A stretch of DNA of 64,000 bases, taken from an uncultured Thermoleophilia bacterium. GTDB lineage: Bacteria; Actinomycetota; Thermoleophilia; UBA2241. Below the pieces are notes generated by a model, which had not been told where the DNA came from, made no database searches, and saw only the letters and a program-made list of their open reading frames with translations. Location of the stretch: contig CAVQSP010000008.1 of NCBI GenBank assembly GCA_963715985.1, forward strand, positions 1 to 64,000. Reading direction: 5' to 3'. The translations under genes and the position numbers were made by a program. Shown piece after piece: positions 13,786 to 31,201 of this stretch. Numbering within the stretch: position 1 is the stretch's first letter; every line of letters starts with the position of its first letter.

Positions 13786-14041
13786 GGCTCGCGACCCGCA
13801 ACGGCGCGGGCGCGGCGACGGTAGACGCGTAGCGGGTACAGCCTCGGCCGCGCGCCTTCTCTTTCATCATCGCGAGCGTCTTCTCGATGCGGCTTGCGCG
13901 CGTCTCGGCGCGGCGCGCCTCGAGGATCCAGTCGATGTACTCGCGCCGGTGCGAGAACGGCATGGCCTCGAACGCGGCGTCCGCCTCGGGGTCGTCGTGG
14001 AGCGCGATCTGCAGGTCGTGGGGGACGGCCGTCTCCGTCAT
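13676..14041 (-). CDS. YdeI/OmpD-associated family protein (true stop may be earlier)
   Basis: VPHDLQIAL...AFEAMPFSHRREYIDWILEARRAETRASRIEK. Confidence 0.75.
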   Translation of the reverse strand: MTETAVPHDLQIALHDDPEADAAFEAMPFSHRREYIDWILEARRAETRASRIEKTLAMMKEKARGRGCTRYASTVAAPAPLRVASPTPGRPRRRLGPRARPGRGPAPARRPRAGRPRGRRR

Positions 14042-14130
14042 GTGCTTTCCTCGTGGTCCTGTGGGTATATGTACCCGGCGGAGGGGGAACGCAGCGCGTC
14101 CGCGCTTTGGTGCGCGAGCCGTGTCGGGAG

Positions 14131-15845
14131 GTGACCGTGGACTCGTTCTCGGTGCTCATCGGAGGCAAGGCCGGCGACGGCATCACCGAGGCCGGCACCA
14201 TGATCGCGCACCTGCTGAACGAAGTCGGCTACCGGCTATACCGCCACGTGGACTCGCCGTCGCTCATCCGCGGAGGGCACAACTTCGTCATCGTGCGCGC
14301 GCACCGCCAGCGTATCGGCGCCATGCGCGACCACATCAACGTCCTCATCGCTCTCACCGAGGAGACCCTGGACAGGCACGAATGGCGCCTCAAGCAGCGG
14401 CCCATCACGGTGTACGACAACGAGTCGATCCGCGACCGGCGGCTGCCGTCCATGGCCCACCCGTTCCGCACAGGCATCCCCGTGAAGACCATCCTCGAGC
14501 TGGAGGGCGCGCCGCCGGTGATGCGCAACACCGCCATCCTCGGCGCCCTGTGCAAGGCGATCGCCATCCCGTGGATGGTGCTCGAGGACGTCATCACGCG
14601 GTATCAGCCCAAACAGACCGAGCTCAACCTCAAGGTGGCGCGGCGGGGCTACGACCTCGCCACCGAGAAGCTCCTCGTCGACCTCCCCGGCGGCGGCCCC
14701 CTGCCCGTCTGTGAGCGGCCTCGAGGCCATCGGCCTCGGCCTGCTGCGCGGAGGGCTGAAGGCGTACGCCGCCTACCCGATGACGCCGGCCAGCGGCCTG
14801 CTGCACTTCCTCGCCCGCCAGGCGCCGCGCTTCGAGCTCAAGGTGGTCCAGCCCGAGGGTGAGATCGCCGCCATGATGATGGCTCTCGGACACGCCTATG
14901 CCGGTGAGCGCGCCGCCGTGGGCACCTCGGGCGGCGGCTTCTGCCTGATGGTCGAGGGGCTCAGCCAAGCCGGGCAGGCCGAGCTGCCCATCGTCGTGGT
15001 GCTCGGCCAGCGGACCGGCCCCAGCACCGGCCTGCCGACGTACACGGCGCAGGCCGACCTGGACTTCGCCCTCAGCGCCGGCCACGGGGAGTTCCCGCGC
15101 GTCGTGATCGCCCCGGCGAGCGTGGAGCAGGCGTACGCCTGGAGCACGCTGGCCATGGACCTCGCGTGGGCGTACCAGATCCCCGTCATCGTGCTCGGCG
15201 ACCGGACACTGAACGACGACTCGCAGAGCTTCGTGGCCGGCGAGGCGCCGGACCTGCCACGCTTCGCGGCACGGGAGTGGAGCCGGCCCGAAGGCGCCGG
15301 CCGCGGCGCGGACGCCGAGTACCTGCGCTACCGGATCACCGAGGACGGCGTCAGCCCACTGGCGTTCCCGGGCCGGGCCGGCGCGACGTCAAAGTCGAAC
15401 ACGTACACGCACGACGAGGCCGGGCTCACCACCGAGGACCCCGGCATCACCGTCGCCATGCAGGACAAGTGGGAGCGCAAGGGGGCCGCGGTCGCCGCCG
15501 CCCTCGAAGCGGCTGCCGCTGGTCAATGTGTACGGCGACCCGCAGGCCGCGCACACGGTCGTGACGTGGGGTTCGCCGACCGGCGCGATGCGCGAGGTCG
15601 GCGAGCTCGAGGGCCTAGCGCGTCGTGCAGCCGGTGGTGCTCGCGCCGTTCCCCGTCCGCCGGCTGGCGCACGCGCTGGCCGGCAGCGAGCGGGTGGCGG
15701 TGCTGGAGATGAACTCCACCGGCCAGCTGGCCGGCCTGCATGGAGCGGCACGGGCTCGACAGCGGACGAGGCGATCCTCCGCTACGACGGCCGGCCCTGG
15801 GGCGTGGGCGAGCTGCGCCGCGAGGTGGAGAAGGTGTTCGCGTGA
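14131..15845 (+). CDS. 2-oxoacid:ferredoxin oxidoreductase alpha (gamma-alpha) subunit; several apparent frameshifts
   Basis: IGGKAGDGI, SLIRGGHN, AYPMTPAS, EGEIAA, TSGGGF and QRTGPSTGLPT. Confidence 0.88.
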
Positions 15846-16702
15846 GCGTGCCCGGCGCGCGACCTGAAGACCGACGGCCGCCAACACCTGGTGCCCCGGC
15901 TGCGGCAACTTCGCCGTGCTCACCGCCCTCAGCGGCCATGATCCAGGGGCTGATCGACGAGGGCACGCGGCGAGAGGACATCGTCGTGGTCGCCGACATC
16001 GGCTGCAACAGCAAGATCATGGACTACGTCGGAGTCAACAGCTTCAACGCCTTGCACGGGCGCTCCGTGGCGTCGGCGGTCGGCATCAAGCTGGCGAACC
16101 CGCGCCTGAAAGTGATCGTGCACGGCGGCGACGGCGGCACCCTCGCGGAGGGGCTCGAGCACACGCTCTTCGCCGCCAAGCGCAACGTCGACATCACGCT
16201 GATCATGCACGACAACGGCGTCTACGGGCTGACCATCGGCCAGGCCGGGCCGGAGACGCCGCCCGGCTACCGGGGACGCTCGACGCCGTACGGCAGCATC
16301 GAGGACCCGTTCAACCCGCTGGAACTCCTGTACGTGGCCGGGGCCACGTATCTGGCGCGCGGCTACACCCACGGCATCCCGCTGCTCAAGCGCCTGTATC
16401 GGGATGCCATCCTGCACAGCGGCTTCAGCGTGGTGGACACGCTGCAGGTGTGCGTCACGTTCCGCAACATGTACGAGGCGTACAACGCGCGGGTCTACGA
16501 GTTGGACGGGCACGACCCTCGCAACGAGGAGCAGGCGCTGGCGAAGATCCGTGAGTGGGACTACCGCTCAGAAGCGCCCATAGCCCTGGGCACGTTCAGC
16601 GTGCGCGAGCGGCCGGTGTTCGGCGAGCAGTTCGCCGGCTACGGGCGCGAGCCGGTGGACGTGGACGCTCGGCTCGCCGAGGTGTTCGCGAGCCTCACGT
16701 AG
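15842..16702 (+). CDS. 2-oxoacid:ferredoxin oxidoreductase beta subunit; frameshift near the N-terminus
   Basis: NTWCPGCGNF (alternate frame), DIGC, LHGR and the ThDP motif GGDGG...DNGVYGLT. Confidence 0.88.
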   Translation: MSVPGARPEDRRPPTPGAPAAATSPCSPPSAAMIQGLIDEGTRREDIVVVADIGCNSKIMDYVGVNSFNALHGRSVASAVGIKLANPRLKVIVHGGDGGTLAEGLEHTLFAAKRNVDITLIMHDNGVYGLTIGQAGPETPPGYRGRSTPYGSIEDPFNPLELLYVAGATYLARGYTHGIPLLKRLYRDAILHSGFSVVDTLQVCVTFRNMYEAYNARVYELDGHDPRNEEQALAKIREWDYRSEAPIALGTFSVRERPVFGEQFAGYGREPVDVDARLAEVFASLT

Positions 16703-16759
16703 CGCGCGGCCGGACACGGCTGCGGCGGCCGCGCCCGATGCGTGCCGGCCGCCGCCTCT

Positions 16760-17552
16760 TCAGTCCTGCGCCAGCCTGTGCAGCTTGGAGAAGCTGAGGA
16801 TCTCGATGAGCTCGTGGTCGCCGCTCATGCGGATGACCTCGGCGCGCTTGAGACGGTCGAAGGTGCGGCTGAGCGTCTCGGGCACGGTGCCGAGGCGGGC
16901 GGCCAGCTCGCGCTTGCTGGTGGGCAGCCGAACGACGCGCGGGCCGTCCGCGAGCGCGGCGGGGCCGCCGGGTCCGCCCGGGCACCACCGGGGGCGGGCT
17001 GCCTGGGACGCTGGGTCCCGTCTGCGTGCCGGCTCCCCCGGGGACGCGGTCGAGCTGCTCGTCCGCGAGGCCGAGCAGGTAGCGGGCCAGGCGCGCCGGC
17101 ACCGGCAGCAACAACTCCTCCACGCGGCGGTTGAGGAGCCCCAGCAGGTGCGCCATGGCGGCGATCATGTTCACGGCGAACTGGGGGTCCGCGCGCAGCA
17201 GAGCGAGCACCTGGTCCGTCTCGAAGCGGTACAGGCGCGACGCCGTCATCGTCTCCGTGCTCGAGGGGTAGGAGTCGCTGAAGAGGGCGGCCTCGGCGAA
17301 GGTCTGGCCGGCCGGCACGTGGCGTACGGTCGCCGTGCGGCCATCGCGCAGCAGCTTGAACACCTTGACGCGCCCCTCGGCGAGCAGGAAGAAGGCCTGT
17401 GCGGGGTCGCCCTGGAGGAAGATGGTGGTCTCCGGCGGCAGCTCCAGCGGGCGGGCGATGCCGGCCAGCTTGCTGAGCTGCGCCTCGTCCAGCTGCGCGA
17501 AGATCTGCGCCGCGTGCAGGTCGGCGACGATCTGCTGCGAGGAGACTGTCAT
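16760..17552 (-). CDS. Crp/Fnr-family transcriptional regulator (HcpR/DNR-like); frameshift in a Pro/Gly-rich insert
   Basis: IFLQGDPA...GRVKVFKL...TFAEAALF and HTH SKRELAARLGTVPETLSR. No N-terminal FNR cysteines. Confidence 0.85.
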
Positions 17553-19251
17553 GCGCGCAGTATATCGGCGGGCGTGCCGCCGTCCCGCGGCGCTGCCGGC
17601 GCGCCGCCCGTCTGCGACGGCGGCGCGCCACCCGGGGCCAGGGACGGGTTCGCCGGCAGCACGACGATGGCCGACGTCCCCTCCAGCGGGCACTTGTACT
17701 CGCAGATGCCGCAGCCGATGCAGCGTCTGGCCACCACGCTCGGCCGTGCGAGGTAGTCTTGCGAGCCGTCCGGCCTCGTGATCAGACGGGGCTCGTCGAG
17801 CACGATGGCCTTGTCGGCCACAGGGCACATCTCCTGGCACACGATGCAGGGCGTCGCCTGTGCCCACGGCAGGCAGCGGTCGCGGTCGATGACGGCCACG
17901 CCCAGCACCTGCCGGCGCTTCTCCTCCAGACCGAGCTTGGGGATGGCGCCCGACGGGCACACGTGGCCGCAGGCGGTGCAGGCGAAGTCGCAGTAGCCGA
18001 GCCGCGACACGAGCACGGGCGTCCACAGGGCCTCGAGGCCGCCCTGGGCGAGGGCAGGCTGCAGGCCGGAGGTGGGGCAGACCTTCATGCACTCGCTGCA
18101 GCGCAGGCAGTGGGAGAGGAACGCGCTCTCGTCCTGGGCCCCGGGCGGACGGATGAGCCCGGCGTTGGTGACCCCGCGCCACACGCCGGTGCCGAGCAGG
18201 GCCACGGCGCCGACGCCGACGGCCGCCGCCGTGATGAACTCCCGGCGGCCGGGGTCGTACTCCTCCCACGGCGCCGGGCGCAGCGAGGTGCCGAGGGTCA
18301 TCGCCTCCCGCTCGGGGCAGGCGACGAAGCAGTCCAGGCACATGGTGCACTCGGAGGTGACGACCGCCGCGTGGGATGCGCCGGTGTCGGGCGCGGCCGG
18401 GATCGCGTCCAGCCGGCAGGAGCGCGCGCAGGCACCGCAGTCGGTGCACCCCTCGCCGACCAGCGGCCGCAGGACCTGCACCTTGGCGACCAGCCCGAGG
18501 AGCGCGCCGAGCGGGCACAGGTACCGGCACCAGAAGCGGTCGGCGAAGACGTCGAGCAGGACGACGGCCGAGGAACAGCAGGAAGAGCGCGATGCCCTGC
18601 GAGAAGTGCGGCTGGTACACGGGCAGCACGTTGCCGCGGACGTGCGTCTCCAGCCACGTGACGACGCCCCCGCCGATGCCCCAGTCGACGAGGGCGGTCT
18701 CCACGGCGTTGACGGCGTAGACGAAGCCGGGGACGAGGGACGTGGTGGCGGTGCGCGTGAGCAGCGAGATGGGGTCGAGGACCATCAGCGTGAGGCTGCC
18801 GAACGCGGCCATCACGGCGATGACGCCGAGCAGGACGTACTTGACGGACTTGAGGCGCGGCGGCACACGCGGTCCGAGCCGCCGCGCCGACGTGAAGCGA
18901 GACCACTCGAGGATCGTCCCGAGCGGGCAGATCCAGCCGCACCACACGCGGCCGACGGCGAGGGCGGCGGCGATGGTGACGATGGCCGCCGCCAGGTGCG
19001 GCAGCCAGGCGCGCGCGGCCAGCATGGTGCCGAAGGCGGCCAGAGGGTCGAAGCGGAAGAAGATATCGGCGAGGGGGAAGGCCGCGCGGCGCTGCAGCGC
19101 GGCGAAGAGCAGGAGAGATGAAGAACGCGAGCGCGGCGATCTGGACGGCGCGGCGCACCCAGCGGGCGGCCTTCCAGCCGCCCGTCCGGCGCCGCGTCCC
19201 AGGCCCTCCCGCCCCGCGCGGCCGCTCCGCGCTCGTCGGCTCGTCTGCCAC
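17549..19251 (-). CDS. Membrane-bound polyferredoxin (NapH/MauN plus NapG/MauM-like); two apparent frameshifts
   Basis: GRVWCGWICPLG, FWCRYLCPLG, several CxxCxxCxxxCP motifs and IRPPGA. Confidence 0.82.
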
Positions 19252-19257
19252 GCCGGC

Positions 19258-20232
19258 TCAGACGATCCTGATCCTGACCTTGGTCAGGTCCATGGTCCCG
19301 AGATGCATAGCCGCTGCGGCTTTGATGTAGGGCACGGCCGCGGGCTTCTTGCCGAAGAGGCGGGTGGCATACGTGTCGGCCGCCACCCAGTCGGCGCAGG
19401 CGATCACCGTGTCCTTGGCGCGGACATCACTGAGACTGCCGCCAGACGGCCCGTTGCGTACGAGGATGCGGGTGGCGTCGATCACGGTGAGAGCGGGCCG
19501 GAGCTTGGCGTTGATCTCGGCGATGCTCTGGCTGAGCCCCAGCGTGTGCATGCGCCCGCGGTCGTCGGTGACGCCCATCATGTTCTTGCCGGCGAGGGTG
19601 AGCCCGGTGGAGCTGTGCTGCTTGGCCACCGGCACGTTGATGAGCACGTCGGCGTTCACTACGGTGCGGTACAGCGGCTGGGTCTTGAGCAGGTGCCCGG
19701 GGAGCTTGAAGTCCGTGAAGCCTGAGCTCCCCATCACCTGCATGTCGCCGCCGGCGCTGCGGACCGCTTTGCCGATGCCGCTGACGTCGTAGCAGGAGCC
19801 CGGGTCGGCGCTCACCGGGTTGTCCATGACGAGGACCTGCTTCGCGCCGGCCTGTCTGGCGAGGGAGACCAGCGTGGCGACGACTGCCGGGTTCGTGGTG
19901 GCCGCGTACTTGGGCGCCCTCGCCCAGCCGATGTTGGGCTTCACCACGACGACGTCGCCGGCGTGCACGAACTTCTTCATGCCGCCCACGGCCGCGACGG
20001 CCCTCTTGACGTTGGCCGCCGGGGACGTGCCGCGAGCCACCGCAAGCACGGTGGCCACCGCCGCTCGGGCTGCCTCGGCGTCGCCGTCCAGGGCGGCCCG
20101 GTCGAGGTGCTCCTCGTGCGCGGCGAGTGCCGCGAGGGCGCGTTCCGGCGCGCGACCGAGCATGGTCGCGCCGGCGCCCGCCAGCGCCAGCAGCTTCAGG
20201 AAGTCCGCGCGTTTGAGCGGTTCGGTCGCCAT
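19258..20232 (-). CDS. DUF362 family protein with Tat-like signal
   Basis: KRADFLK leader, VVVKPNIGW...ATTNP, INVPVAKQH...KNMMG and DWVAAD. Confidence 0.85.
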   Translation of the reverse strand: MATEPLKRADFLKLLALAGAGATMLGRAPERALAALAAHEEHLDRAALDGDAEAARAAVATVLAVARGTSPAANVKRAVAAVGGMKKFVHAGDVVVVKPNIGWARAPKYAATTNPAVVATLVSLARQAGAKQVLVMDNPVSADPGSCYDVSGIGKAVRSAGGDMQVMGSSGFTDFKLPGHLLKTQPLYRTVVNADVLINVPVAKQHSSTGLTLAGKNMMGVTDDRGRMHTLGLSQSIAEINAKLRPALTVIDATRILVRNGPSGGSLSDVRAKDTVIACADWVAADTYATRLFGKKPAAVPYIKAAAAMHLGTMDLTKVRIRIV

Positions 20233-20294
20233 GTGACACCTCTGCGCCGAGCTTGGCTGTCGCCGTGATGGTACTCCTCGGCGCAGCGGACCGC

Positions 20295-20324
20295 TTGACG
20301 GCCGTGCGGCCGCTCGTCTAGCAT
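20295..20324 (+). promoter_or_regulatory. Sigma70-type promoter for the riboswitch-1 transcript
   Basis: TTGACG-18 nt-TAGCAT immediately upstream of the riboswitch. Confidence 0.5.
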
Positions 20325-20334
20325 CCGCGACGCT

Positions 20335-20485
20335 TGGAGATGCCCGCGAGGGCCTCGAGGGAAGCCGGTGAGATCCCGGCGCGGACCCGCCGCTGTGACC
20401 GGGGACGACGGCTGCACGAAGCCACTGTCAGTTCGCTGACGGGAAGGCGCAGCCGGAGGACGATCCGGGAGCCAGAAGACCTGTC
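20335..20485 (+). ncRNA. Cobalamin riboswitch 1
   Basis: AGGGAAGCCGGTGAGATCCCGGCGCGGACCCGCCGCTGTGA...GCCACTG...GGGAAGGC...B12 box GAGCCAGAAGACCTG. Confidence 0.93.
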
Positions 20486-20555
20486 CCCAAGCGCGCTGAC
20501 GACGCTCTGCGTGGTGAACGGAGCGGCGGCGGCGCATGCCGCGGCCTCGAATACG

Positions 20556-20593
20556 GGAGGCCCGGGCCCGACGAAGTGTCGGCCCGGGCTTCT
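20556..20593 (+). terminator. Hairpin in the riboswitch-1 expression platform
   Basis: GGAGGCCCGGGCCCGAC-GAAGT-GTCGGCCCGGGCTTCT followed by a T-containing tail. Confidence 0.55.
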
Positions 20594-20621
20594 GTCGTTG
20601 TCGGGACCGAGAGGCGGTGCG

Positions 20622-21772
20622 ATGCGGGACTTGATGCAGGCGGTCGTCGTGCGCGACGTGGGCGGCTACGAGGTCACCGAGGTGCCGGTGCCCGAGCCCG
20701 GCCCGGGCGAAGCCCTCATCCGGGTGAGCGTGACCGGCCTCTGCCGCACCGACCTCAAGCTGATCCGTCACGGCCACCGCGACCTGGAGCTGCCCCGCGT
20801 GCCGGGGGAGGAGGTCGTCGGCGAGATCGTGGCGCTGGGGCCGGCGGCGGATGCGGCCGCCGGCTCTGCCGGCGCTCCAGCTGCGTCTGCCGCCATGGCT
20901 GCTGCGTCCTCCGGGGCCGGCCCCGGTTCAGCCGGCTCACCCGCCGGCGCGGCCGGCGACGCGATGCCCTTCGCCGCCGGCGACCGCGTCTACGTGTACC
21001 CCGGCGTGTGGTGCGGCGAGTGCCCGAGCTGCCGGCGCGGGGCGGAGAACCTCTGCCGGAGCATGCGCATCATGGGCTTCCACCGCGACGGCGGCTTCGC
21101 CGGCTACGTCGCGGCGCCGCTGCAGAGCCTGATTCGCGTGCCCGCCGGCCTGAGCGACGAGGAGGCCGTGTTCGCGGAGCCGCTGAGCTGCTGCCTCAAC
21201 GCCCTCGAGCTCGGCGGCGTGGGCGAGGGCGACGTGCTCGGCATCTGGGGGGCCGGCCCGGCCGGCACGCTCCTGTGCCGGGCCGGCGCCTTGCTCGGCG
21301 CGGCCCCTTTCGTGGTCGAGCCGGACGCGCGCCGCCGGGACCTGGTCAGGGCGGCGCCCGGCACGCCGGCGGCCGCCACGTTCGGCGCCACTCCGCCGCC
21401 GCTGGTGGACGTGGCCATCGTCGCCGTCGGCGACCCATCCGCCTACGCCGAGGCCGAGGAGACGCTCGCCCCGCGCGGCCGCCTGGTCGTGTTCTCGGCC
21501 TGCTGCCGCACGACGACGCTGCGTATCACCTGAGCCTCAACAGCATCCACTACCACGAGCACACCGTGGTCGGGGCGTACGGCTGCTCCTTCCGCCACGG
21601 CGTAGCTGCGCTGGAGCTCCTGGGCTCCGGCCGGCTTCGCGTGGACGACCTCATCAGTCACCGCCTGCCGCTGGCCGACCTCGAGCAGGGTCTCGGCATC
21701 GTCGCCGACCGTGCCGGCATGAAGGTGCACCTGCGTCCCGCTGCCTCCCACACCGACAAGGAGACGACATGA
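20622..21772 (+). CDS. Zn-binding MDR alcohol dehydrogenase family protein (threonine/sugar-alcohol DH-like); frameshift near 21500
   Basis: GLCRTD, PGEEVVG (GHE variant), CGECPSC...NLC, EPLSC, GAGPAG and ISHRLPL. Confidence 0.85.
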
Positions 21773-22905
21773 CCGCCAGCGAGTCCGACCTGCGCGCCTT
21801 CGGCGCCGACATCCAGCGGCTCATCGACGGTCGCGACCTGAGCCGCCGCCGTACCTACGAGCTGTTCCGCGACACGCTGCTTGGCGAGCAGCCGGACCTG
21901 CAGCAGGGCGCGCTGCTGGCCGCCCTGGTCGCCAAGGGCGAGACGCCCGAGGAGATCGCCGGGGCCTGGCAGGCCATCGTGGAGTTCGACACCGTCCGCG
22001 CCGCGGTGGACGCCCCCGGCCCGCTCGTCGAGAACTCCGGCACCGGCATGGACGCGCTCAAGACGTTCAACGTGAGCTCGGCGGCCGGGTTGATCGCCGC
22101 CGCCGCCGGGGCGCGCGTGGCCCGGCACGGCGCGCGCGCCCTCACCAGTCGCTGCGGAGCCGTGGACATCCTCGAGGCCGTCGGCGTGGACGTGGACTGC
22201 GACGGCCCATCCGTGGAGCGCAGCATCCGCGAGGCCGGCATCGGCATCTTCAACGGCATGAGCCCTGCGGTGCACCCGGGCGGCCTGGGGCGCATCCTCA
22301 GCCAGATCCGGTTCGGATCCACCCTCAACATCGCCGCGTCGCTGGCCAACCCCGTGCGGCCCACGCACGGCGTGCGCGGTGTGTACGCCGGCTGGCTCGT
22401 GGGCCCGGTGGGCGAAGTGATGATGGAGATCGGCTACGAGCACGCTGTGGTGGTCCACGGCTACGACGACCGTCGCGAGGCGGGCATGGACGAGCTCTCC
22501 GTGATCGGCCCGACGCTGGTGGCCGAGCTGCGCGCCGACGGGCGCCGGGACTCGTACACCGTGGAGCCCGAGGACTTCGGCATCAGCCGCGCCACGCACG
22601 CGGAGATCGCGCCGCTCGAGGACCTGCGGGCGGAGGCGCTCAGGTTTCTCGGCGTCGTCGGCGGGCGCGGGACCGAGGCGTGTCAGGACGCCGCCTGCCT
22701 CAACGCCGCAGCCGTGCTCTACGTGGCCGGGCAGGCCGGTGACCTCGCGGAGGGTCTCGCGCAGGCCCGCGAGGCCGCCGGCAGCGGCGCCGCTCTGCGC
22801 AAGCTCGAGGAGTGGGTGGCGGCGCAGGCCGGCGGGGTCGAGCAGCGCGCGACGGGCGAAGCCCGCCTGGCCGCGCTGCTCGATGAGGCCGGCCTCGGCC
22901 TGTGA
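21769..22905 (+). CDS. Anthranilate phosphoribosyltransferase-like protein (divergent TrpD paralogue)
   Basis: KGETPEEIAG, ENSGTGMD..KTFNVSS, ARHGAR, LANP and GMDE; ATGA overlap with the dehydrogenase. Confidence 0.85.
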   Translation: MTASESDLRAFGADIQRLIDGRDLSRRRTYELFRDTLLGEQPDLQQGALLAALVAKGETPEEIAGAWQAIVEFDTVRAAVDAPGPLVENSGTGMDALKTFNVSSAAGLIAAAAGARVARHGARALTSRCGAVDILEAVGVDVDCDGPSVERSIREAGIGIFNGMSPAVHPGGLGRILSQIRFGSTLNIAASLANPVRPTHGVRGVYAGWLVGPVGEVMMEIGYEHAVVVHGYDDRREAGMDELSVIGPTLVAELRADGRRDSYTVEPEDFGISRATHAEIAPLEDLRAEALRFLGVVGGRGTEACQDAACLNAAAVLYVAGQAGDLAEGLAQAREAAGSGAALRKLEEWVAAQAGGVEQRATGEARLAALLDEAGLGL

Positions 22906-22913
22906 GGAGGTGA

Positions 22914-22928
22914 TGATATATTTTCTCA
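22914..22928. promoter_or_regulatory. Fur-box-like element upstream of riboswitch 2
   Basis: TGATATATTTTCTCA, 14/15 identical to 56715-56729. Confidence 0.5.
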
Positions 22929-22943
22929 GCTCTGGATTGACTG

Positions 22944-23112
22944 GCAGGTGACGCGGGGGTAGCCTTCCCAAGCTGTCTCTCGACCGCAGGGAAGCCGGTG
23001 CGACACCGGCGCTGCCCCGCAACTGTGAGCGCCGACGAAAGCCGCTGTGTGCCACTGCCTCCGGGCGGGAAGGCGCGGCCGGTAGGACGAAGCGCAAGCC
23101 AGGACACCTGAG
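22944..23112 (+). ncRNA. Cobalamin riboswitch 2
   Basis: AGGGAAGCCGGTGCGACACCGGCGCTGCCCCGCAACTGTGA...GCCACTG...GGGAAGGC...AAGCCAGGACACCTG. Confidence 0.93.
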
Positions 23113-23152
23113 CCGGGAGATCATCGCGACAACGCCTCGAGGGAGGGCTGCG

Positions 23153-23837
23153 GTGGATCCACCTCACGGACGTCTCATCCTCGTCACCGGCGGCGCGCGC
23201 AGCGGCAAGAGCTCGTACGCCGAGCGGCTCGCTGCGCAGCTGTCCGCGCCGCAGCACGGCAAGGTGACGTACCTTGCCACATCTCAGACCTACGACGAGG
23301 AGATGGAGCAGCGGGTCGCGCAGCACCGCGCCGCGCGCCCTGCGACCTGGACGACCGTCGAGTGTCCGCTGGACGTGCCGGATGCCCTGCGCGCCGCGGC
23401 GGCCGACGCCGGCCCGGCCCCGGTCATGCTTCTCGACTGCGTCACCCTGTGGGTGACCAACCTTCTCTTCAGCGGGCGGCGCCTTCGGTGGCAGCGCGCC
23501 GCCGGGCGACGGCTACAACTACGACAAGGACCTGCTGCCACCGGCCGAAGAGCGAGCGGCGGCGGATCGTGTGACGGCGGCGGTGGAAGACCTGCTGGCC
23601 GCCGTCCCCGAGACCGGCGCCACCCTCATCGCCGTGTCCAACGAAGTGGGGCTCGGGGTGGTCCCCGAGTATCCCCTCGCCCGTCTGTACCGCGACCAGC
23701 TCGGCTGGGCCAACCAGCGCCTCGCGCGTGCCGCCGACAAGGTGTACCTCCTTGTCTCCGGCTATCCGCTCGACGTCAAGGCGCTCGCCGCCGCCGACAT
23801 GATCGTGACCGATCCTTTCTCCAGGGAGCTCCCGTGA
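23153..23837 (+). CDS. cobU: Adenosylcobinamide kinase/guanylyltransferase; frameshift near 23480
   Basis: VTGGARSGKS, LLDCVTLWVTN and VSNEVGLGVVP. Confidence 0.92.
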
Positions 23838-24919
23838 CCGACCTCATCAAGACCACCATCGCGGCCATCGCGCCGCTCGACGCGGCCGCCATGCGCGCCG
23901 CCGAAGACCGGCAGATGCACCTGACCAAGCCGCCCAAGGCACTCGGCCGCCTCGAGACTCTCTCCATCCAGCTGGCCGGCATCCAGGGCAGAGAGCAGCC
24001 GGTGATCGAGCACAAGGCCATCGCCGTGATGGCCGCCGACCACGGGGTGACCGCAGAGGGCGTCAGCGCCTTCCCCGCCGAGGTCACGCCGGCGATGGTC
24101 TTCAACATGGCCGCCGGCGGGGCCGGCATCAACGTCATCGGCCGCCACGTCGGCGCGCGTGTGGTGGTCACCGACGTGGGCGTGAACGCCGACCTGAGCG
24201 CGGCCGAGGGTGTGCGCCACGAGAAGATCCGCATGGGGACCGCCAACATGGCGGCGGGCGCCGCGATGACCCGTGAAGAGGCCGTGCGCGCCATCGAGGT
24301 CGGTATCCGCGTGGTCGAGGAGGAGCTCGAGAAGGGGCTCGACATCATCGCCACCGGCGAGGTGGGCATCGGCAACACCACCGCCGCCTCGGCGGTGATC
24401 GCCGCGCTCACCGGCGAGTCGGCCTCCAAGGTCACCGGCCGCGGCACGGGCATCACCAAGGACGCGCTGCCTCGCAAGGTCGCCGTGATCGAGAAGGCGC
24501 TCGTCACCAACGCGCCCGATCCGTCCGACCCCATCGACGTCCTCGCCAAGGTCGGCGGCCTGGACATCGCCGCGATGACCGGCGTCTTCCTGGGCGGCGC
24601 CGCGCACCGCGTCCCCGTGGTCATGGACGGCTTCATCAGCGCCGCCGCGGCGCTCGCCGCCGTGCGCCTGTGCCCCGAGTGCGCCAACTACATCCTGCCG
24701 AGCCACGTGAGCATCGAGATCGGGCATCAGGTGGTGCTGAACGAGCTCGGACTGACGCCGCTGTTCGACCTCGAGATGCGCCTGGGTGAGGGGACCGGGG
24801 CGGCGCTGTCGATGAGCATCATCGAGGCCGCCGCCCGCATCCTCAGCGAGATGGCCACGTTCGAGAGCGCCGGCGTTGCCGGCGACCCCACCGAGGCGGA
24901 CGCCGACCTCACGCGCTGA
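23834..24919 (+). CDS. cobT: Nicotinate-nucleotide:benzimidazole phosphoribosyltransferase
   Basis: LTKPPKALGRLE, AADHGV, GEVGIGNTT, DGFI and MRLGEGTGA. Confidence 0.95.
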   Translation: MTDLIKTTIAAIAPLDAAAMRAAEDRQMHLTKPPKALGRLETLSIQLAGIQGREQPVIEHKAIAVMAADHGVTAEGVSAFPAEVTPAMVFNMAAGGAGINVIGRHVGARVVVTDVGVNADLSAAEGVRHEKIRMGTANMAAGAAMTREEAVRAIEVGIRVVEEELEKGLDIIATGEVGIGNTTAASAVIAALTGESASKVTGRGTGITKDALPRKVAVIEKALVTNAPDPSDPIDVLAKVGGLDIAAMTGVFLGGAAHRVPVVMDGFISAAAALAAVRLCPECANYILPSHVSIEIGHQVVLNELGLTPLFDLEMRLGEGTGAALSMSIIEAAARILSEMATFESAGVAGDPTEADADLTR

Positions 24920-24948
24920 GGGCGGCGGAGAAGAAGAGGCGAGGATCT

Positions 24949-25935
24949 GTGAGCGACGGCACCGACTGGTTCGACGAGGAGCACCCCGGCGCGGCGGGCG
25001 AGGGCACGACGCCGGCGCCTGCCGGCGGTGCGCAGCCGGCCCATACCGGCGGCGAGGGCGAGATCCCGATGGCGGACGTCGCTCGGCCGGCCGGCGGGCG
25101 CGAAGTGCCACCTCCGCCGCCGGCGGCCGGGCGCCGTCCGTCGCACGGCGGTCCCGTCCGGCAAGCCACGCTCGCCGTCACGTTCCTCACCGGCATCCCG
25201 CTCAAGGTCGAGGGTGACGTGAGCCCGGCCGACCTGTGGCGCAGCATGGGCTGGTACCCGCTCGTAGGACTCGGCCTGGGGGCGCTGGCATGGGGCGTGT
25301 ACGCAGGCCTCGTCTCGTTCCTGCCGGGCCTCGTGGCAGCGACCCTGGTCGTGATCATGCTCGAACTGCTCACGCGCGGTCTGCACATGGACGGCGTGAT
25401 GGACACCGCCGACGGCATCCTCAGCGGAGCCCCGCGCGACCGCGCTCTGGAGATCATGAAGGACCACAACGTCGGCGCCATGGGCGTGGTGGCCGCGGTG
25501 CTGCTCCTCGTGCTGAAGGTCGCGGCCCTGGGCGCGCTCACGCGCGCCGACGCGGCCGCGCCCCTGCTCGCCGGCTGGTGCGCGGCGCGCGCGCTGCCCG
25601 CGCTGGACGTGTACCTGTGGCCCTACGCGCGCCCGGCAGGCACCGGCGAGGCGTTCACGCGGGAGCGCAGCCTCGGGCCGGTGGAGCTGTCCCTCGGGCT
25701 CCTCATCGGCGGTGTCGTGGTCGCGGGGGCCGTCGGCTTCGTGATCGACGGCGCCGGCACATGGTTCACTGGTCTGCTCGCGGCCGCGGTGGCGATGGCC
25801 GTGACGCTGGCGGTGCAGGCCGCCGTGGCGAAGAAGCTCGGCGGCCTCACCGGCGACGTGTACGGCATGGGCATCGAGCTGGCCGAGGCCGCCGCGCTCG
25901 TCACCGGCGCCGCCGTGGTGGGGGTGCTGCTGTGA
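24949..25935 (+). CDS. cobS: Cobamide synthase
   Basis: GLHMDGVMDTADG, IMKDHNVGAMG and GGLTGDVYG. Confidence 0.92.
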   Translation: MSDGTDWFDEEHPGAAGEGTTPAPAGGAQPAHTGGEGEIPMADVARPAGGREVPPPPPAAGRRPSHGGPVRQATLAVTFLTGIPLKVEGDVSPADLWRSMGWYPLVGLGLGALAWGVYAGLVSFLPGLVAATLVVIMLELLTRGLHMDGVMDTADGILSGAPRDRALEIMKDHNVGAMGVVAAVLLLVLKVAALGALTRADAAAPLLAGWCAARALPALDVYLWPYARPAGTGEAFTRERSLGPVELSLGLLIGGVVVAGAVGFVIDGAGTWFTGLLAAAVAMAVTLAVQAAVAKKLGGLTGDVYGMGIELAEAAALVTGAAVVGVLL

Positions 25936-26702
25936 AGCTGTACCTGGTCCGCCACGGCCAGTCCACGGGCAACGTCGGCGGCACGCTGATGGGCCAGAGC
26001 GACCACCCGCTCACCGCTCTCGGTGAGCTGCAGGCCCGCGCGGCGGCGGAGCGGCTGGCGCCGTTCGGCCCCATGCCGGTGTACCACAGCGACCTGCCGC
26101 GGGCGGCCGCCACGGCGGCGCACATCGTGGCGGCATGGGGCGCGTGCCGACGACGCAGCTGCTCTTTCGCCGACCCCCGCCTGCGCGAGATCAGCCTCGG
26201 GTACTACGAAGGCCGCTCCTGGGAGGAGTTCGAGGCCGACGAAGCAGCTCACCGCCGCCTTCGCCGAGGACCCCTACGGTACGACGCGTGCCGGGCGGCG
26301 AGTCCCTCGAGCACCTCGCCGATCGCGTGGCGGCCGCCGTGCGCGACATCCTCGCGCTTCACGGCGTGAGCGACCACAGCGAGCTGTCCACGGAGGCGGT
26401 CGCCGCAGCCGGATGCCAGCGCGCTGGCCACCGGGTTCCACCCCGCCGAGCCAGGGGAGAACGCCTGCATCGTGGCGCACGACGGCCCCATCCGCGCCAT
26501 CCTCAACCACTACCTCGGCGTCCCGCCGGAACGCTGGTGGACGCTGTCCACCACGCACGGCGCCGTCTCCCTGCTCGAGTTCAGCGGCGGCTGGGTGAAC
26601 GTGCGCTTCGTCAATGCCGCCAGTCACCTCGCGGGCCTCGAGCCCGATGTGTACGTGCCCTCGGTCGAGGAGCCGGACGCCGACGCCGGCTCCGCCGGCT
26701 GA
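25932..26702 (+). CDS. cobC: Histidine phosphatase (alpha-ribazole/adenosylcobalamin phosphatase); frameshifts
   Basis: LYLVRHGQS, SDLPRA, LREISLG, GGES and VAHDGPIR. Confidence 0.8.
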
Positions 26703-26712
26703 CGCGCCCCAG

Positions 26713-27678
26713 ATGGTCTGGTCGATGGTCTTCGTCCCCGGAGATTGGCGGCTCGCACTCTGCACCGTGCTCCTGGCCGGCGTCATCGACGTCACGCTCG
26801 GTGAACCGCCCAACGCACTGCATCCGGTGGTCTGGATGGGGCACCTCATCGCTTTTCTCGAGCGGCGCCGCCCGCACGGCCGTCCGGCGGCGGAGTTCGC
26901 CTACGGTGTACTCATCGTCGTCGTGACCGCCGGGGCGGCGTTCGCCGCCGGCCTCGCGCTCGACGCTCGTCCTCGACCGGCTGCCGTGGTGGCTGGCGCT
27001 GCTCGCCGGCGCCTGCGTGCTCAAGACGACGTTCTCGCTGCGCGGGCTGGTGCGCGCCGGCCGCCAGGTGCAGCGGGCGCTCGCCGCCGACACCGACGCG
27101 GCGCGCGCGAGCCTCGCCGCGCTGGTCAGCCGCTCTCCCGATCTCGACCCGCCCCTGATCGTCTCGGCAACGGTCGAGTCTCTGGCCGAGAACCTCACCG
27201 ACAGCGTCGTCTCGCCGCTGCTCTACTACGCGCTGTTCGGGCTCCCTGGAGCCCTCGCCTACAGAGCGGTCAACACCATGGACGCGATGCTCGGCTACCG
27301 CGATGAGCGCGAGTACGTGGGCAAGGCGGCGGCACGCAGCGACGACGCCGCCAACTGGGTCCCCACGCGCATCGCCGCGCTCCTGCTGGTCGCCGTGGCA
27401 GCATTCAGGCGCACGGCCGGGCAAGCCTGGCACGCCTTCCGCACCCAGCACCTGCCCGAGTACGGTCCCAACAAGACGCTGGCCATCGCGACGATGGCCG
27501 GGGCCCTGGGCGTGCAGCTGCAGAAGCCGGGCGCCTACGCGCTCGGGCCGGACCGACCGTCCGCTCACGGCCGGCGGTGATCGGCGACGCCGCGCGCATG
27601 GTATGGGTGGCCGGCGGCGTGACCGTCGCGGCCGCCGCGGGCCTTGCGGCGGTCCTCACCTGGGCGGTGGCGTGGTGA
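26713..27678 (+). CDS. cbiB: Adenosylcobinamide-phosphate synthase; frameshifts
   Basis: [42 protein letters not shown] and [10 protein letters not shown]. Confidence 0.9.
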
Positions 27679-28776
27679 GCGCCGCGCTGCTGCGACGCGT
27701 CACGCGGTCGGTGCACGGCGCGGTCGACCCGTCGGCGCTGCGCGCCGAGGGCGTCGACCCGGCCGCCATCGTGGACTTCAGTTCCAACCAGTCGCCGCTG
27801 GGCGCGGCGCCGGGCGTGGCGGCTGCGGTCGCCGGCGCCGCCGTTGATGCGTATCCCGACCCCCATGCGGCGGAGCTCACGGCGCGGCTGGCCGCGCGGC
27901 ACGGCGTGTCGCAGGAGCAGGTGGTCTGTGGCAACGGCAGCACCGAGCTCATCCGGCTGGTCGCCCAACTCGCGCTGCGGCCGGGCGACGTCGCCCTGGC
28001 GCTGGCGCCGGTCTTCGGGGAGTGTGAGGTGGCCACGGCCCTCACCGGCGCAGCGCTCGAGACCGTGCCTCTGACCCACGCCGGACACGGGGCCGGCTTC
28101 TCCTGCGACGAGCCGGCCCTCCGGAGCGCGCTGGCGCGCCTGCGGCCACGTCTCTGCTGGCTGTGCTCGCCCAACAACCCGACGGGTGCGGCGCTGCCCG
28201 CCGACCTGGTCGCCACGTTGGTCGCCGACTACCCGCGGACGCTCTTCGTACTCGATGAGGCCTACTGCGACCTGCTGCCCGAGCCGCAGTGGGAGCGAGC
28301 GTCCCTGGCTGAGGGCAACCTCGTGGTGCTCCATTCGATGACGAAGTACTGGGGCTTGGCCGGGCTGCGTCTCGGCCATGCGGTGGCAGCCCCGGAGACG
28401 GCGGCGGCGCTTCGCGCCGCGGCTCCGCCGTGGAGCGTCAACGCCTGCGCCCAGGCCGCCGGCGTCGCGGCGCTCGCCGATCGCGCCCATCACCGGCGGG
28501 CGGTCGACCTGCTCGTGCGCGAGCGCGACCGCCTCGCCGCCGGCCTGCGCCGGCTCGGCTGGGTCGCCGAGCCGACCTCCGCCGGCTTCTTCCTCATCCA
28601 CGCCGGCGATGCGCCTGCGGTCCGCCGTGCGCTGCTCGAGCAGGGCTGCCTCGTCCGCGACTGCACCTCCTTCGGTCTGCCGGCACACGTGCGCGTGAGT
28701 CCCCGGCACCCAGGAGGACAACGCGCTTCTGTTGGCGGCGTTCGCCGCGTTGACGCCGCCGGAGGCGGCTGCGTGA
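27675..28776 (+). CDS. cobD: L-threonine-O-3-phosphate decarboxylase (PLP class I/II)
   Basis: HG...DFSSN, GNGSTELI, CSPNNPTG, LDEAY and SMTKYWGLAGLRLG; cob operon context. Confidence 0.82.
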
Positions 28777-30213
28777 GCGCCGTGGCTCCGGCTCCGGCGG
28801 TCACCGTGCCCCGGCTGGTCGTGGCGGCGCCGCGCAGCGGCGAGGGCAAGACCACCGTCGCGCTCGGCCTCATGGCCGCGCTGCGCCGCCGCGGACTGCG
28901 CGTCCAGGGCTACAAGGTCGGTCCCGACTACCTGGACACCGGGTACCAGCGGTTCGCGGCCGGCCCGGCCGGGCGCAACCTGGACCTCTTCATGATGGGC
29001 GAGAGCGCCGTGCTCGACGCCGTGGCCGGCGCCGACGCGGACGTCGCCGTCGTCGAAGGTGTGATGGGCCTGTTCGACGGGCACCGCGACGGCGTGACGC
29101 CGACCAGCACCGCCGACGTCGCGGCCCTGCTGCAGGCGCCGGTGGTCCTCGTGCTGGACGCCTCGCGCCTGGCCGCCAGTGCGGGCGCGATCGCCCTGGG
29201 CTTCAAGACCTTCGATCCCTCCGTGAACGTGGCCGGCGTGCTCCTCAACCGCTGGAACCCGCGGCGCTCGCGGACGGCCGTGGAGGCGGCGCTGGTGCGC
29301 GCCGGTACGCCCGTCTTCGGCTATCTGCCGAGCGCGGACGACCTCGAACTGCCCTCGCGCCACCTCGGTCTGGTGGTGGCCGACGAGCTCGGCGCCGAGG
29401 TCGCGCAGGTCATGGAGGCGCTCGCCGACTGGGTCGAGGAGAACGTAGACGTCGAGGGCCTGCTCGAGACGGCGCGGCGCGCGGCGGACGTGGCACGGGT
29501 CTCCGCCGCCGGCCCGGGTCTCGCCCAGGCGGCAGCGTCCGCTGCTCAAGGTGCGGCATCCCCTGCCCCGGGCCCGCGCATCGCCGTCGCCTGGGACGCC
29601 GCCTTCGCCTTCTACTACGCAGACAACCTCGAGTTGCTGCGCGCTCGCGGCGCCGAGCTCGTCTTCTTCAGCCCGCTCGCGGCCGCCGAGCTGCCCGTCT
29701 GCGACGGGCTCTACCTCGGCGGCGGCTACCCCGAGCTGCACGCGGCGGGGCTCTCGGCCAACGTCGGCTCTGCGCCGCCGCATCGCCGCCGCCCTCGCCG
29801 GCGGACTGCCGGCGTATGCCGAGTGCGGCGGCCTGCTGTACCTGTGCGAGACGCTGGTGGACCTCGACGGCAGGTCGTGGCCGCTGGTCGGCGCCGTCCC
29901 CGGGCGCGCGGCCATGCACGAACGCCTCCAGGGCATGGGCTACCGGGAGGCGCAGCTGGCCTCCGGCGCGCTCCTCGGTCCTGCGGGAGAGACGGTCCGC
30001 GGCCACGAGTTCCACTACTCGTCCTGTCGCATCGACGGCGGCGATCACGCCGCCTACCTCGTCGACGGCGAGCCGGAGGGCTACGCCGCCGGTGACCTGT
30101 TCGCCTCGTACATCCACCTGCACTTCGGCGGGTACCCGGCCCTGCTCGAGCACTGGCTCGAACGCTGCCGGTCCTTCGCCCGCACCCCTCGTCCAGGAGG
30201 TCATCCCTCATGA
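28773..30213 (+). CDS. cbiA: Cobyrinate a,c-diamide synthase; frameshift near 29770
   Basis: SGEGKTT, KVGPDYLD, EGVMGLFDG, SRHLGL, AFYY, GGYPE, AECGG and GHEFHYS. Confidence 0.93.
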
Positions 30214-31196: not shown

Positions 31197-31201
31197 GCCC
31201 C

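What the first reader, a model, noticed from the sequence alone, without database searches (positions are those of the whole stretch)
20335..22905. B12-riboswitch-controlled dehydrogenase plus divergent TrpD pair heading the cob cluster: candidate undescribed cobamide lower-ligand or linker module
Seen: a clear cobalamin riboswitch with its own promoter precedes two translationally coupled genes (ATGA overlap), a Zn-MDR dehydrogenase and an anthranilate-PRTase paralogue. They sit directly upstream of a second riboswitch and cobU-T-S-C. No other trp gene is in the window, and no bluB, bzaA-F or pduX/bluE is seen although cobT and cobD are present. Established: neither family is part of the standard anaerobic cbi/cob pathway. 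Inference: the pair could make or activate a non-canonical lower base by PRPP-dependent ribosylation of an aromatic amine or heterocycle plus a redox step, or supply the aminopropanol linker.
Basis: partly seen in the sequence, partly recalled or inferred. Interest (0 to 1): 0.85.

Follow-up and report, generated by a model that had tools for sequence, protein, structure and literature searches.

The report
Riboswitch-controlled dehydrogenase–TrpD-like cobamide module
A vitamin-B12-sensing RNA switch controls a pair of enzymes of unknown job, a dehydrogenase and a look-alike of a tryptophan-pathway enzyme, and the same trio recurs in many unrelated anaerobic B12-making bacteria, which points to an undescribed step in making the vitamin.

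Summary
Rfam finds two cobalamin riboswitches (20321-20502, 22988-23109). The first precedes a Zn-MDR dehydrogenase and a TrpD paralogue joined by an ATGA overlap; the second precedes cobU-T-S-C-cbiB and a full anaerobic cbi cluster. The dehydrogenase frame is broken after 21496 in this assembly, but contigs from 3 of 4 public runs carry the missing base, so this is an assembly error.

The pair is not local. In 75 of the 80 best related loci (292 found), spanning many phyla, the same dehydrogenase sits directly upstream of the TrpD-like gene. In 58 of 70 evaluable loci a cobalamin riboswitch precedes it. A canonical trpD lies elsewhere in the genome.

All 10 diverse carrier genomes tested have CobT and CbiD. 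BluB was absent from the 5 of these tested and from all 24 sampled genus genomes. In congeners without the pair, the same riboswitch slot holds an NMT1/THI5-type ABC importer.

Anticorrelation with bza is not supported: 3 carriers also have riboswitch-controlled ThiC-like genes.

Best reading: an undescribed accessory module of anaerobic cobamide synthesis, most likely supplying or activating a lower ligand. The chemistry is unproven, and six paper searches found no description.

The parts
20295..20324 (+). sigma-70-like promoter (TTGACG-18-TAGCAT) just upstream of riboswitch 1
   Evidence: 1 site found; shuffles give a mean of 0.1. This is a consensus match only.
20321..20502 (+). cobalamin riboswitch 1 (full-length aptamer)
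   Evidence: RF00174, 100.4 bits, model positions 1-189. Orthologous riboswitches lie upstream of the dehydrogenase in relatives.
20555..20595 (+). strong G+C-rich hairpin between aptamer and start codon; candidate expression platform, mode not established
   Evidence: fold of 20480-20640 gives -87.8 kcal/mol, z-score -3.4. The terminator scan did not call it because the T run is poor.
20622..21772 (+). Zn-MDR-type dehydrogenase gene (start ATG 20622 or 20634), read in two frames in this assembly because one base is missing after 21496
   Evidence: ADH_N and ADH_zinc_N domains. One frame in 6 of 9 relatives' loci. Contigs of 3 of 4 runs carry the extra base.
21769..22905 (+). TrpD-clade phosphoribosyltransferase paralogue (378 aa); its ATG overlaps the dehydrogenase stop (ATGA)
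22988..23109 (+). cobalamin riboswitch 2, before cobU
   Evidence: 87.3 bits. A second riboswitch lies before cobU in 14 of the 15 Thermoleophilia loci that hold cobU; none was found in L049, which shows no cobU.
23153..23837 (+). cobU (context; frame shifted near 23476 in this assembly)
23840..24919 (+). cobT (context)
   Evidence: DBI_PRT, 450.6 bits, at 23867-24877.
24949..25935 (+). cobS (context)
25932..26700 (+). cobC-type phosphatase, His_Phos_1 (context)
26722..27580 (+). cbiB (context; frame shifted near 26930-26960)

Best explanation
Riboswitch 1, the dehydrogenase and the TrpD-like gene form a self-contained two-gene operon that B12 most likely represses (the switch's polarity was not shown). 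It is an accessory module of anaerobic cobamide biosynthesis. Shown: the trio is conserved across many phyla, it occurs only in genomes that also have CobT and the anaerobic corrin gene CbiD (all those tested), and it repeatedly lies next to nucleotide-loop, remodelling or hem/cbi genes. Inferred: the TrpD-like enzyme still uses PRPP and Mg2+, but on an acceptor other than anthranilate, because its acceptor-side motifs are changed. The dehydrogenase, an MDR in which the usual catalytic His of the GHE motif is Glu, carries out an NAD(P)-linked redox step on the ribosyl or ribulosyl product or on the acceptor. The product most likely feeds CobT as a lower-ligand base or an activated form of it. 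It would thus serve the same pool as the NMT1/THI5-type ABC importer that fills the same riboswitch slot in congeners lacking the pair. When cobamide is plentiful, the riboswitch shuts the operon off. The confidence given is for the lower-ligand reading; that the pair is a cobamide-biosynthesis accessory module at all I hold at about 0.8.
For: Subfamily: the TrpD-like protein is 37% identical to the genome's own TrpD but 54-64% identical to proteins in Desulfobacterota, Nitrospirota, PVC-group, Dehalococcoidales and Myxococcota genomes. It forms a clade apart from 11 canonical TrpDs (SH-aLRT 100, quick tree).
Pairing: the dehydrogenase lies directly upstream at 45% identity or more in 75 of 80 loci. 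The gap is -17 to +139 nt in 54 of 56 loci. One fused protein, P0122, was found.
Riboswitch: Rfam finds one directly upstream in 11 of 20 short loci. An nhmmer profile built from those finds one in 58 of 70 evaluable loci, 45 of 56 outside Thermoleophilia.
Context where no riboswitch is seen: hemB-pair-hemL (L050, L061), cobA/hemD-pair (L075) and pair-cbiZ-cobT (L107). cobT lies within 10 kb in 20 of 80 loci.
Carriers: CobT 10 of 10 and CbiD 10 of 10; BluB 0 of 5.
Genus: pair 9 of 24, CobT 22 of 24, BluB 0 of 24, ThiC-like 0 of 24.
Same slot: in pair-lacking congeners riboswitch 1 precedes an ABC permease, an NMT1/THI5-like binding protein and an ATPase. The binding protein is in 6 of 13 CobT-positive pair-lacking genomes and in 0 of 10 pair-bearing ones (Fisher one-sided p = 0.017; the genomes are kin, not independent). 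L038 carries both in one operon.
Motifs: GTGGD becomes GTGMD, KHGN becomes RHGA, LGPLTNP becomes AASLANP. These changes are invariant in alignments A1 and A3. GMDE is kept.
Against: There is no biochemical evidence. PRPP transfer by TrpD-type enzymes gives beta-ribosides, while cobamides need an alpha link (recalled chemistry), so the enzyme cannot simply replace CobT. The pair coexists with riboswitch-controlled ThiC-like (Bza-type) genes in G186, G193 and G045, and carriers are not depleted in second ThiC-like copies (3 of 7 against 21 of 144), so it is not a plain substitute for Bza. Thirteen CobT-positive congeners lack the pair, so it is dispensable. Twelve of 70 evaluable loci show no riboswitch. 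In most non-Thermoleophilia loci no cob gene lies within 10 kb. Placement inside hem/cbi operons does not point to any particular step. The importer's substrate is unknown.
Confidence: 0.5

Rival explanations
1. The pair has some other cobamide-related role that is not lower-ligand supply. Examples: remodelling or salvage together with CbiZ, recycling of a by-product, or a missing core step in some lineages.
For: The pair is followed by cbiZ and cobT in L107 and sits between hemB and hemL in L050 and L061. All 10 carriers tested are de novo producers with CbiD.
Against: cbiJ, cobD, cobC, cobA and the other core genes are all present in the window cluster, so no core step is visibly vacant for these two families. 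NaMN supply is not needed, because NadC is present. The distribution is patchy: 9 of 24 in the genus and 7 of 151 in a phylum sample.
Confidence: 0.2
2. Linker supply: the Tdh-like dehydrogenase makes aminoacetone or aminopropanol from threonine for the aminopropanol arm, standing in for the missing L-threonine kinase route.
For: The nearest curated models include L-threonine 3-dehydrogenase, and archaeal Tdh structures are among the closest solved relatives. No threonine-kinase-type domain was seen in the cluster.
Against: The Tdh models score far below their cut-offs (103.9 against 458 bits). The catalytic His of GHE is Glu in all 25 aligned members. A PRPP transferase has no evident role in this route, yet it is always paired. 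A CobD-type decarboxylase in the cluster implies the threonine-phosphate route. A core step would not be missing from 13 CobT-positive congeners.
Confidence: 0.1
3. B12-independent bypass: like metE or nrdDG, the pair replaces a cobamide-dependent reaction and is switched off when B12 is present.
For: In most non-Thermoleophilia loci the pair is a stand-alone riboswitch operon away from cob genes, as is typical of such isozymes.
Against: I can name no cobamide-dependent reaction that a PRPP transferase plus a dehydrogenase could replace (reasoning only). Adjacency to cobT/U/S, cbiZ and hem/cbi genes recurs in at least 6 lineages. An importer shares the slot directly before cobU.
Confidence: 0.1
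4. The TrpD-like gene is an ordinary second anthranilate phosphoribosyltransferase for tryptophan synthesis.
For: It passes the TIGR01245 cut-off, and sources name it anthranilate phosphoribosyltransferase.
Against: A canonical trpD is present. The paralogue forms a separate clade and its conserved motifs are changed. No trp genes are nearby, and it lies behind a B12 riboswitch.
Confidence: 0.03
5. The dehydrogenase is a decaying pseudogene, and the pair is non-functional in this organism.
For: The frame is broken after 21496 in the window.
Against: Contigs of 3 of 4 public runs carry the missing base. At least 8 similar shifts hit other genes, including cobU, between 14 and 32 kb. The gene reads in one frame in 6 of 9 relatives' loci.
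Confidence: 0.02

Closest known systems
Anthranilate phosphoribosyltransferase TrpD (glycosyltransferase family 3; TIGR01245)
   Same: It has the same two-domain architecture and scores above the curated cut-off. It aligns end to end with solved TrpDs. The GMDE motif and most of the PRPP-side motifs are kept.
   Different: It forms a separate clade and is only 37% identical to the genome's own TrpD. GTGGD becomes GTGMD, KHGN becomes RHGA, LGPLTNP becomes AASLANP, and there is a 5-6 residue insertion before GMDE. It always sits behind a dehydrogenase and usually a B12 riboswitch, never with trp genes.
Zn-dependent MDR polyol and threonine dehydrogenases (Tdh; PDB 4ej6, 2dfv)
   Same: It has ADH_N and ADH_zinc_N domains, four structural-zinc cysteines, the Cys of CRTD, the Glu of EPL, and a GxGxxG motif.
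   Different: It falls far below every curated cut-off. GHE is replaced by GEE in all 25 aligned members and in at least 90% of 62. The Thermoleophilia members carry a variable Ala/Gly-rich loop.
bza operon (riboswitch, bzaA/B or bzaF, cobT and further genes): anaerobic benzimidazole synthesis
   Same: The layout is the same in some loci: a cobalamin riboswitch, then ligand-supply genes, then cobT (L053, L107, L049 and Thermoleophilia). Both occur in anaerobic producers.
   Different: The enzyme families are unrelated (no radical-SAM ThiC-like protein). The pair coexists with ThiC-like riboswitch operons in 3 genomes.
CobT (NaMN:base phosphoribosyltransferase)
   Same: Both would transfer a phosphoribosyl group to a base-like acceptor in a cobamide context.
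   Different: The fold and the donor differ. CobT is present in every carrier tested, so the pair does not replace it. The PRPP route would give the beta anomer (recalled chemistry).
ThiXYZ and RibXY-type NMT1/THI5 ABC importers of vitamin precursors
   Same: The importer that fills the same riboswitch slot in congeners has a BPD_transp_1 permease, an NMT1/THI5-like binding protein and an ABC ATPase.
   Different: It lies behind a cobalamin riboswitch, not a TPP or FMN one. Its substrate is unknown. That ThiY and RibY belong to this family is recalled, not tested here.

Membership tests
TrpD (anthranilate phosphoribosyltransferase, TIGR01245) | Profile score above the curated cut-off | tested here: met
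   250.8 bits against 199.05.
TrpD (anthranilate phosphoribosyltransferase, TIGR01245) | Canonical GTGGD and KHGN motifs (their roles in PRPP and anthranilate binding are recalled) | tested here: not met
   GTGMD and RHGA, invariant in A1 and A3.
TrpD (anthranilate phosphoribosyltransferase, TIGR01245) | Groups with canonical TrpDs in a tree | tested here: not met
   26 TrpD-like sequences split from 11 canonical ones with SH-aLRT 100. This is a quick tree, and the canonical set comes from one class only.
TrpD (anthranilate phosphoribosyltransferase, TIGR01245) | Is the genome's tryptophan-pathway copy, or sits in a trp context | tested here: not met
   A canonical copy lies at C1:37144-38130 with 402.7 bits. 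No trp genes appear in the scanned ORFs of the window.
TrpD (anthranilate phosphoribosyltransferase, TIGR01245) | Catalyses anthranilate + PRPP to phosphoribosylanthranilate | not testable with these tools
   Needs an enzyme assay.
Zn-MDR dehydrogenase / L-threonine 3-dehydrogenase | ADH_N and ADH_zinc_N domains, structural-zinc Cys4, GxGxxG | tested here: met
Zn-MDR dehydrogenase / L-threonine 3-dehydrogenase | Catalytic-zinc His of the GHE motif (ligand role recalled) | tested here: not met
   PGEEVVG: both Glu invariant in 25 of 25 sequences, the Gly majority only; the whole motif in at least 90% of 62. Alignment to 4ej6 and 2dfv shows His replaced by Glu.
Zn-MDR dehydrogenase / L-threonine 3-dehydrogenase | Tdh equivalog score above cut-off | tested here: not met
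   TIGR00692 scores 103.9 against 458.35 bits on the N-terminal part.
Cobalamin riboswitch (RF00174) | Covariance-model score above the gathering threshold | tested here: met
   100.4 and 87.3 bits against 31.5; 11 further loci pass.
Cobalamin riboswitch (RF00174) | Binds a corrinoid and represses the downstream genes | not testable with these tools
   Only a hairpin between the aptamer and the start codon was seen.
Cobamide (B12) regulon / biosynthesis accessory genes | Riboswitch linkage conserved across distant taxa | tested here: met
   58 of 70 evaluable loci, 45 of 56 outside Thermoleophilia.
Cobamide (B12) regulon / biosynthesis accessory genes | Co-occurs with nucleotide-loop and corrin genes | tested here: met
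   CobT 10 of 10 and CbiD 10 of 10 diverse carriers. All 9 genus carriers have CobT.
Known lower-ligand synthases (BluB, BzaAB/BzaF) | Homology to BluB or to ThiC-like HBI synthase | tested here: not met
   The pair belongs to the GT3 and MDR families. The genome has no BluB over its cut-off and no ThiC-like match.
Known lower-ligand synthases (BluB, BzaAB/BzaF) | Complementary distribution expected of a functional substitute | tested here: inconclusive
   BluB is in 0 of 5 carriers and 0 of 24 genus genomes. But riboswitch-controlled ThiC-like genes coexist with the pair in 3 genomes. TIGR04386 never reached its cut-off, so Bza calls rest on context.

The most novel reading that the evidence does not exclude
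The pair is a third, oxygen-independent and radical-SAM-independent way to supply a cobamide lower ligand. The TrpD-like enzyme would N-ribosylate an aromatic amine or heterocycle with PRPP. The atypical MDR would then oxidise or reduce the ribosyl or ribulosyl adduct. The result would be either a benzimidazole-type base (ribose C1' becoming ring C2, as in the last steps of BluB chemistry) or a new N-aryl ribotide ligand. That would imply a cobamide structure, or a route to one, not yet described in anaerobic soils and sediments.
Probability: 0.25. Interest if true: 0.9.

Novelty: new variant of a known kind. Interest (0 to 1): 0.74.

Why it matters
Lower-ligand identity decides which microbes can use a shared cobamide, yet for many anaerobic producers the source of the ligand is unknown. 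Several steps also still lack genes. Here is a compact two-gene unit annotated everywhere simply as "anthranilate phosphoribosyltransferase". At least 1418 database proteins match it at E <= 1e-100, and 292 loci were found in species-representative genomes. A B12 riboswitch ties it to cobamide synthesis in many phyla.

This makes the question directly testable. Express the two proteins, offer PRPP and candidate acceptors, and profile the cobamides. It also flags a systematic mis-annotation of TrpD. It points as well to a second unknown: a riboswitch-controlled NMT1/THI5-type importer that may take up a lower ligand.

Tried and rejected
Binding of the two proteins: complex prediction on alignments A2 and A3 gave no verdict (score 0.00 twice). 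I draw nothing from it.

RNA evidence: the look-up of sequencing runs listed no RNA holder. This says nothing about expression.

NaMN-supply idea: rejected, because NadC is present. PncB was not found, but the genome is 88.8% complete.

CbiJ replacement: rejected, because cbiJ is in the cluster.

Conserved third gene: clustering of neighbours in 80 loci found none outside the cob genes.

Fusions: one dehydrogenase-TrpD-like fusion, P0122, was found. P0121, fused to Peptidase_C11, is probably a gene-calling artefact. L033 and L080 read as a single ORF but were not examined further.

TIGR04386 as a Bza marker: no genome reached its 700-bit cut-off (maximum 655.7). I fell back on copy number and riboswitch context.

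Terminator scan: none was called between the aptamer and the start codon.

Cultured carriers: none was named among the 120 best hits of either protein search.

Literature: six searches found no paper describing the pair. For PMC8620254 I read passages only: its Fig. 4 legend lists trpD and a dehydrogenase among variable genes of a Chlorobium beside cobalamin genes, with no function claimed. Its supplementary Table S6 may show the arrangement, but supplements are closed. For PMC545781 and PMC2211319 I read passages only; nothing was relevant. Rodionov et al. 2003 (JBC) is not held, so I cannot exclude a mention there.

Tree: the careful search did not finish in 300 s, so the quick tree is reported.
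Full report
WHAT IS IN THE WINDOW. The window is contig C8:1-64000 of a 4.35-Mb, 22-contig genome (88.8% complete, 7.3% contaminated). It is about 72% G+C. Its close relatives are Thermoleophilia MAGs.

Rfam finds exactly two RNA families in the window, both cobalamin riboswitches: 20321-20502 (100.4 bits) and 22988-23109 (87.3 bits). A sigma-70-like site (TTGACG-18-TAGCAT, 20295-20324) lies at the 5' edge of the first. A strong hairpin lies between the aptamer and the first start codon.

Behind riboswitch 1 come two genes. The first is a Zn-MDR dehydrogenase with ADH_N and ADH_zinc_N domains. The second is a 378-aa TrpD paralogue at 21769-22905. It has Glycos_trans_3N and Glycos_transf_3 domains and scores 250.8 bits on TIGR01245, whose cut-off is 199. 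Its ATG overlaps the dehydrogenase stop as ATGA.

Behind riboswitch 2 come cobU, cobT, cobS, a His_Phos_1 cobC and cbiB. These are followed by cobD, cobQ, cbiC, cbiD, cbiE/T, cbiF/G/H-type methylases, cbiJ, cobA(BtuR), cbiA, cysG-hemD and cbiMNQO.

THE BROKEN FRAME IS AN ASSEMBLY ERROR. The dehydrogenase is split between two frames, with one base missing after 21496.
- The two halves lie in one frame in 6 of the 9 relatives' loci compared. The other 3 (L014, L017, L020) are themselves disrupted.
- Intact ORFs of the short-read relative L036 match the window in two frames at no fewer than 8 places between 14 and 32 kb, including cobU near 23476 and cbiB.
- Contigs of public wetland runs X1 and X2 carry an extra G, and those of X4 an extra A, behind 21496. 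An X3 contig lacks one base at 23476.
I therefore treat both genes as intact in nature.

THE PAIR IS A CONSERVED, WIDESPREAD UNIT. The TrpD-like protein is 37% identical to the genome's own TrpD at C1:37144-38130, which scores 402.7 bits on TIGR01245. It is 54-64% identical to proteins of Syntrophobacteraceae, Desulfobacterales, Electrothrix, Smithella, Nitrospirota, Kiritimatiellia, Victivallales, Verrucomicrobiia, Dehalococcoidales, Myxococcota and others.

A scan of species-representative genomes found 292 loci, and I studied the best 80. In a quick IQ-TREE tree, 26 TrpD-like sequences separate from 11 canonical TrpDs of the same class with SH-aLRT 100. The Thermoleophilia copies nest among those of other phyla.

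An orthologous dehydrogenase (45% identity or more) lies directly upstream in 75 of 80 loci. Three more loci have a more distant MDR there, one has a remnant, and one has none. The gap between the two genes is -17 to +139 nt in 54 of 56 loci with both ORFs whole. One fused protein was found. No third gene is conserved.

THE RIBOSWITCH TRAVELS WITH THE PAIR. Rfam found a cobalamin riboswitch directly upstream of the dehydrogenase in 11 of 20 short loci; several of the other nine are cut by contig ends. An nhmmer profile built from these seeds found one within 700 nt upstream, on the same strand, in 58 of 70 evaluable loci. That is 13 of 14 Thermoleophilia loci and 45 of 56 others. Five further loci are cut too short to judge.

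Where no riboswitch is seen, the pair often sits inside cobamide or tetrapyrrole operons:
- hemB-pair-hemL in L050.
- hemA/sirC, hemC-cobA-hemD, hemB, pair, hemL, cbiE/T, cbiF-G-H in L061.
- cobA/hemD-pair in L075.
- pair-cbiZ-cobT in L107.
cobT lies within 10 kb in 20 of 80 loci, 5 of them outside Thermoleophilia.

WHO CARRIES IT. All 10 diverse carriers tested have CobT and CbiD. None of the 5 tested has BluB.

In the window's genus (24 sampled genomes), the pair is in 9, CobT in 22, BluB in 0 and any ThiC-like gene in 0. In a 151-genome sample of the phylum of G041, the pair is in 7.

THE bza TEST FAILED. Of those 7 carriers, 3 have two ThiC-like copies, against 21 of 144 non-carriers. In G186, G193 and G045 one ThiC-like gene lies directly behind its own cobalamin riboswitch, and in G193 it is followed by cobT. 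That is the bza layout. The pair is therefore not a simple substitute for Bza.

A SHARED SLOT. I looked upstream of cobU in six congeners that lack the pair. Three (L121, L124, L126) show a single riboswitch before cobU and no importer (upstream of L124 not annotated). The other three keep two riboswitches, and between them lies an ABC permease, an NMT1/THI5-like binding protein and an ATPase.

Across the genus sample, the binding protein is in 6 of 13 CobT-positive genomes without the pair, always beside cobT. It is in 0 of 10 genomes with the pair, counting G000. Fisher's one-sided p is 0.017, but the genomes are kin, so this is only suggestive.

One further genome, L038, has riboswitch-importer-dehydrogenase-TrpD-like-riboswitch-cobU in a row. 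An importer and an enzyme pair that alternate, and once combine, directly before the nucleotide-loop genes are most simply read as two ways to fill one precursor pool. In a genus with no BluB and no ThiC-like gene, the lower ligand is the obvious candidate. This step is inference.

THE ENZYMES.
- TrpD-like protein. Compared with solved TrpDs, it keeps the GMDE motif and most PRPP-side motifs. It has GTGMD for GTGGD, RHGA for KHGN, TSRCGAVD for SSKSGSAD, AASLANP for LGPLTNP, and a short insertion before GMDE. These changes are invariant across phyla. From recalled TrpD structural work, the Asn of KHGN and the GP stretch line the anthranilate site, so a different acceptor is likely.
- Dehydrogenase. 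It is closest to an uncharacterised Zn-dehydrogenase structure (4ej6) and to archaeal threonine dehydrogenases, but it is far below every curated cut-off. It keeps the structural-zinc cysteines, CRTD, EPLSC and GxGxxG. GHE is replaced by GEE.

COMPARISON WITH WHAT IS KNOWN, AND VERDICT. Neither protein belongs to BluB, Bza, CobT/ArsAB, PduX/BluE or any other family that I know to act in cobamide synthesis. Six literature searches found no description. One paper lists trpD and a dehydrogenase among Chlorobium genes near cobalamin genes, without comment. Rodionov et al. 2003 and all supplements could not be read.

I conclude that the pair is an undescribed accessory module of anaerobic cobamide biosynthesis. 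I am fairly confident of that much. I put about even odds on the specific reading that it supplies or activates a lower ligand. The chemistry is open.

Noticed in passing
L122:6906-10256 (-), L123:9588-12651 (-), L125:6007-9063 (+), L038:2055-5149 (+): In congeners, a cobalamin-riboswitch-controlled ABC importer (BPD_transp_1 permease, NMT1/THI5-like binding protein, ATPase) sits directly before riboswitch 2 and cobU, in the slot that the dehydrogenase-TrpD-like pair occupies here. It may be a lower-ligand or precursor importer. I found no description of it.
   Followed up: partly
window 14000-32000 (e.g. ~14708, ~17010, ~18567, 21496, ~23476, ~26940, ~29767, ~30930-31040): The assembly carries frequent single-base indels that split genes between frames. 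Two of them were checked against public contigs and corrected there. Any pseudogene call in this genome should be distrusted.
   Followed up: yes
window 20863-20942: There is in-frame length variation in the Ala/Gly-rich loop of the dehydrogenase. Contigs of runs X1 and X3 replace 78 bases with 30. The loop is absent from non-Thermoleophilia orthologues.
   Followed up: partly
window 57238-59896: A DUF71/Diphthami_syn_2 gene is followed by btuF-like (Peripla_BP_2) and btuC-like (FecCD) genes. The title of PMC3541065, seen only in a search listing, predicts a B12-salvage role for bacterial DUF71. No riboswitch was detected before this cluster.
   Followed up: no
whole genome G000 and genus g1: No ThiC-like gene at all was found in G000 or in the 24 sampled congeners. 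The genus may depend on external HMP or thiamine, or use another route.
   Followed up: no
L032:11403-13991 (-), L041:10596-13583 (+), L123:7020-9467 (-): In several relatives a large ORF is inserted between the riboswitch-1 unit and riboswitch 2-cobU; the one scanned (L123) has Peptidase_C11 and BNR repeats. Database protein P0121 looks like a false fusion of such a gene with the TrpD-like gene.
   Followed up: no
window 9928-20232: The upstream neighbours are redox genes: a prismane/CO-dehydrogenase family protein and a ferredoxin (-), a ThrE-type exporter (frame shifted), a 2-oxoacid:ferredoxin oxidoreductase, a Crp regulator (-), a multi-4Fe-4S protein (-) and DUF362 (-). This fits an anaerobic lifestyle.
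   Followed up: no
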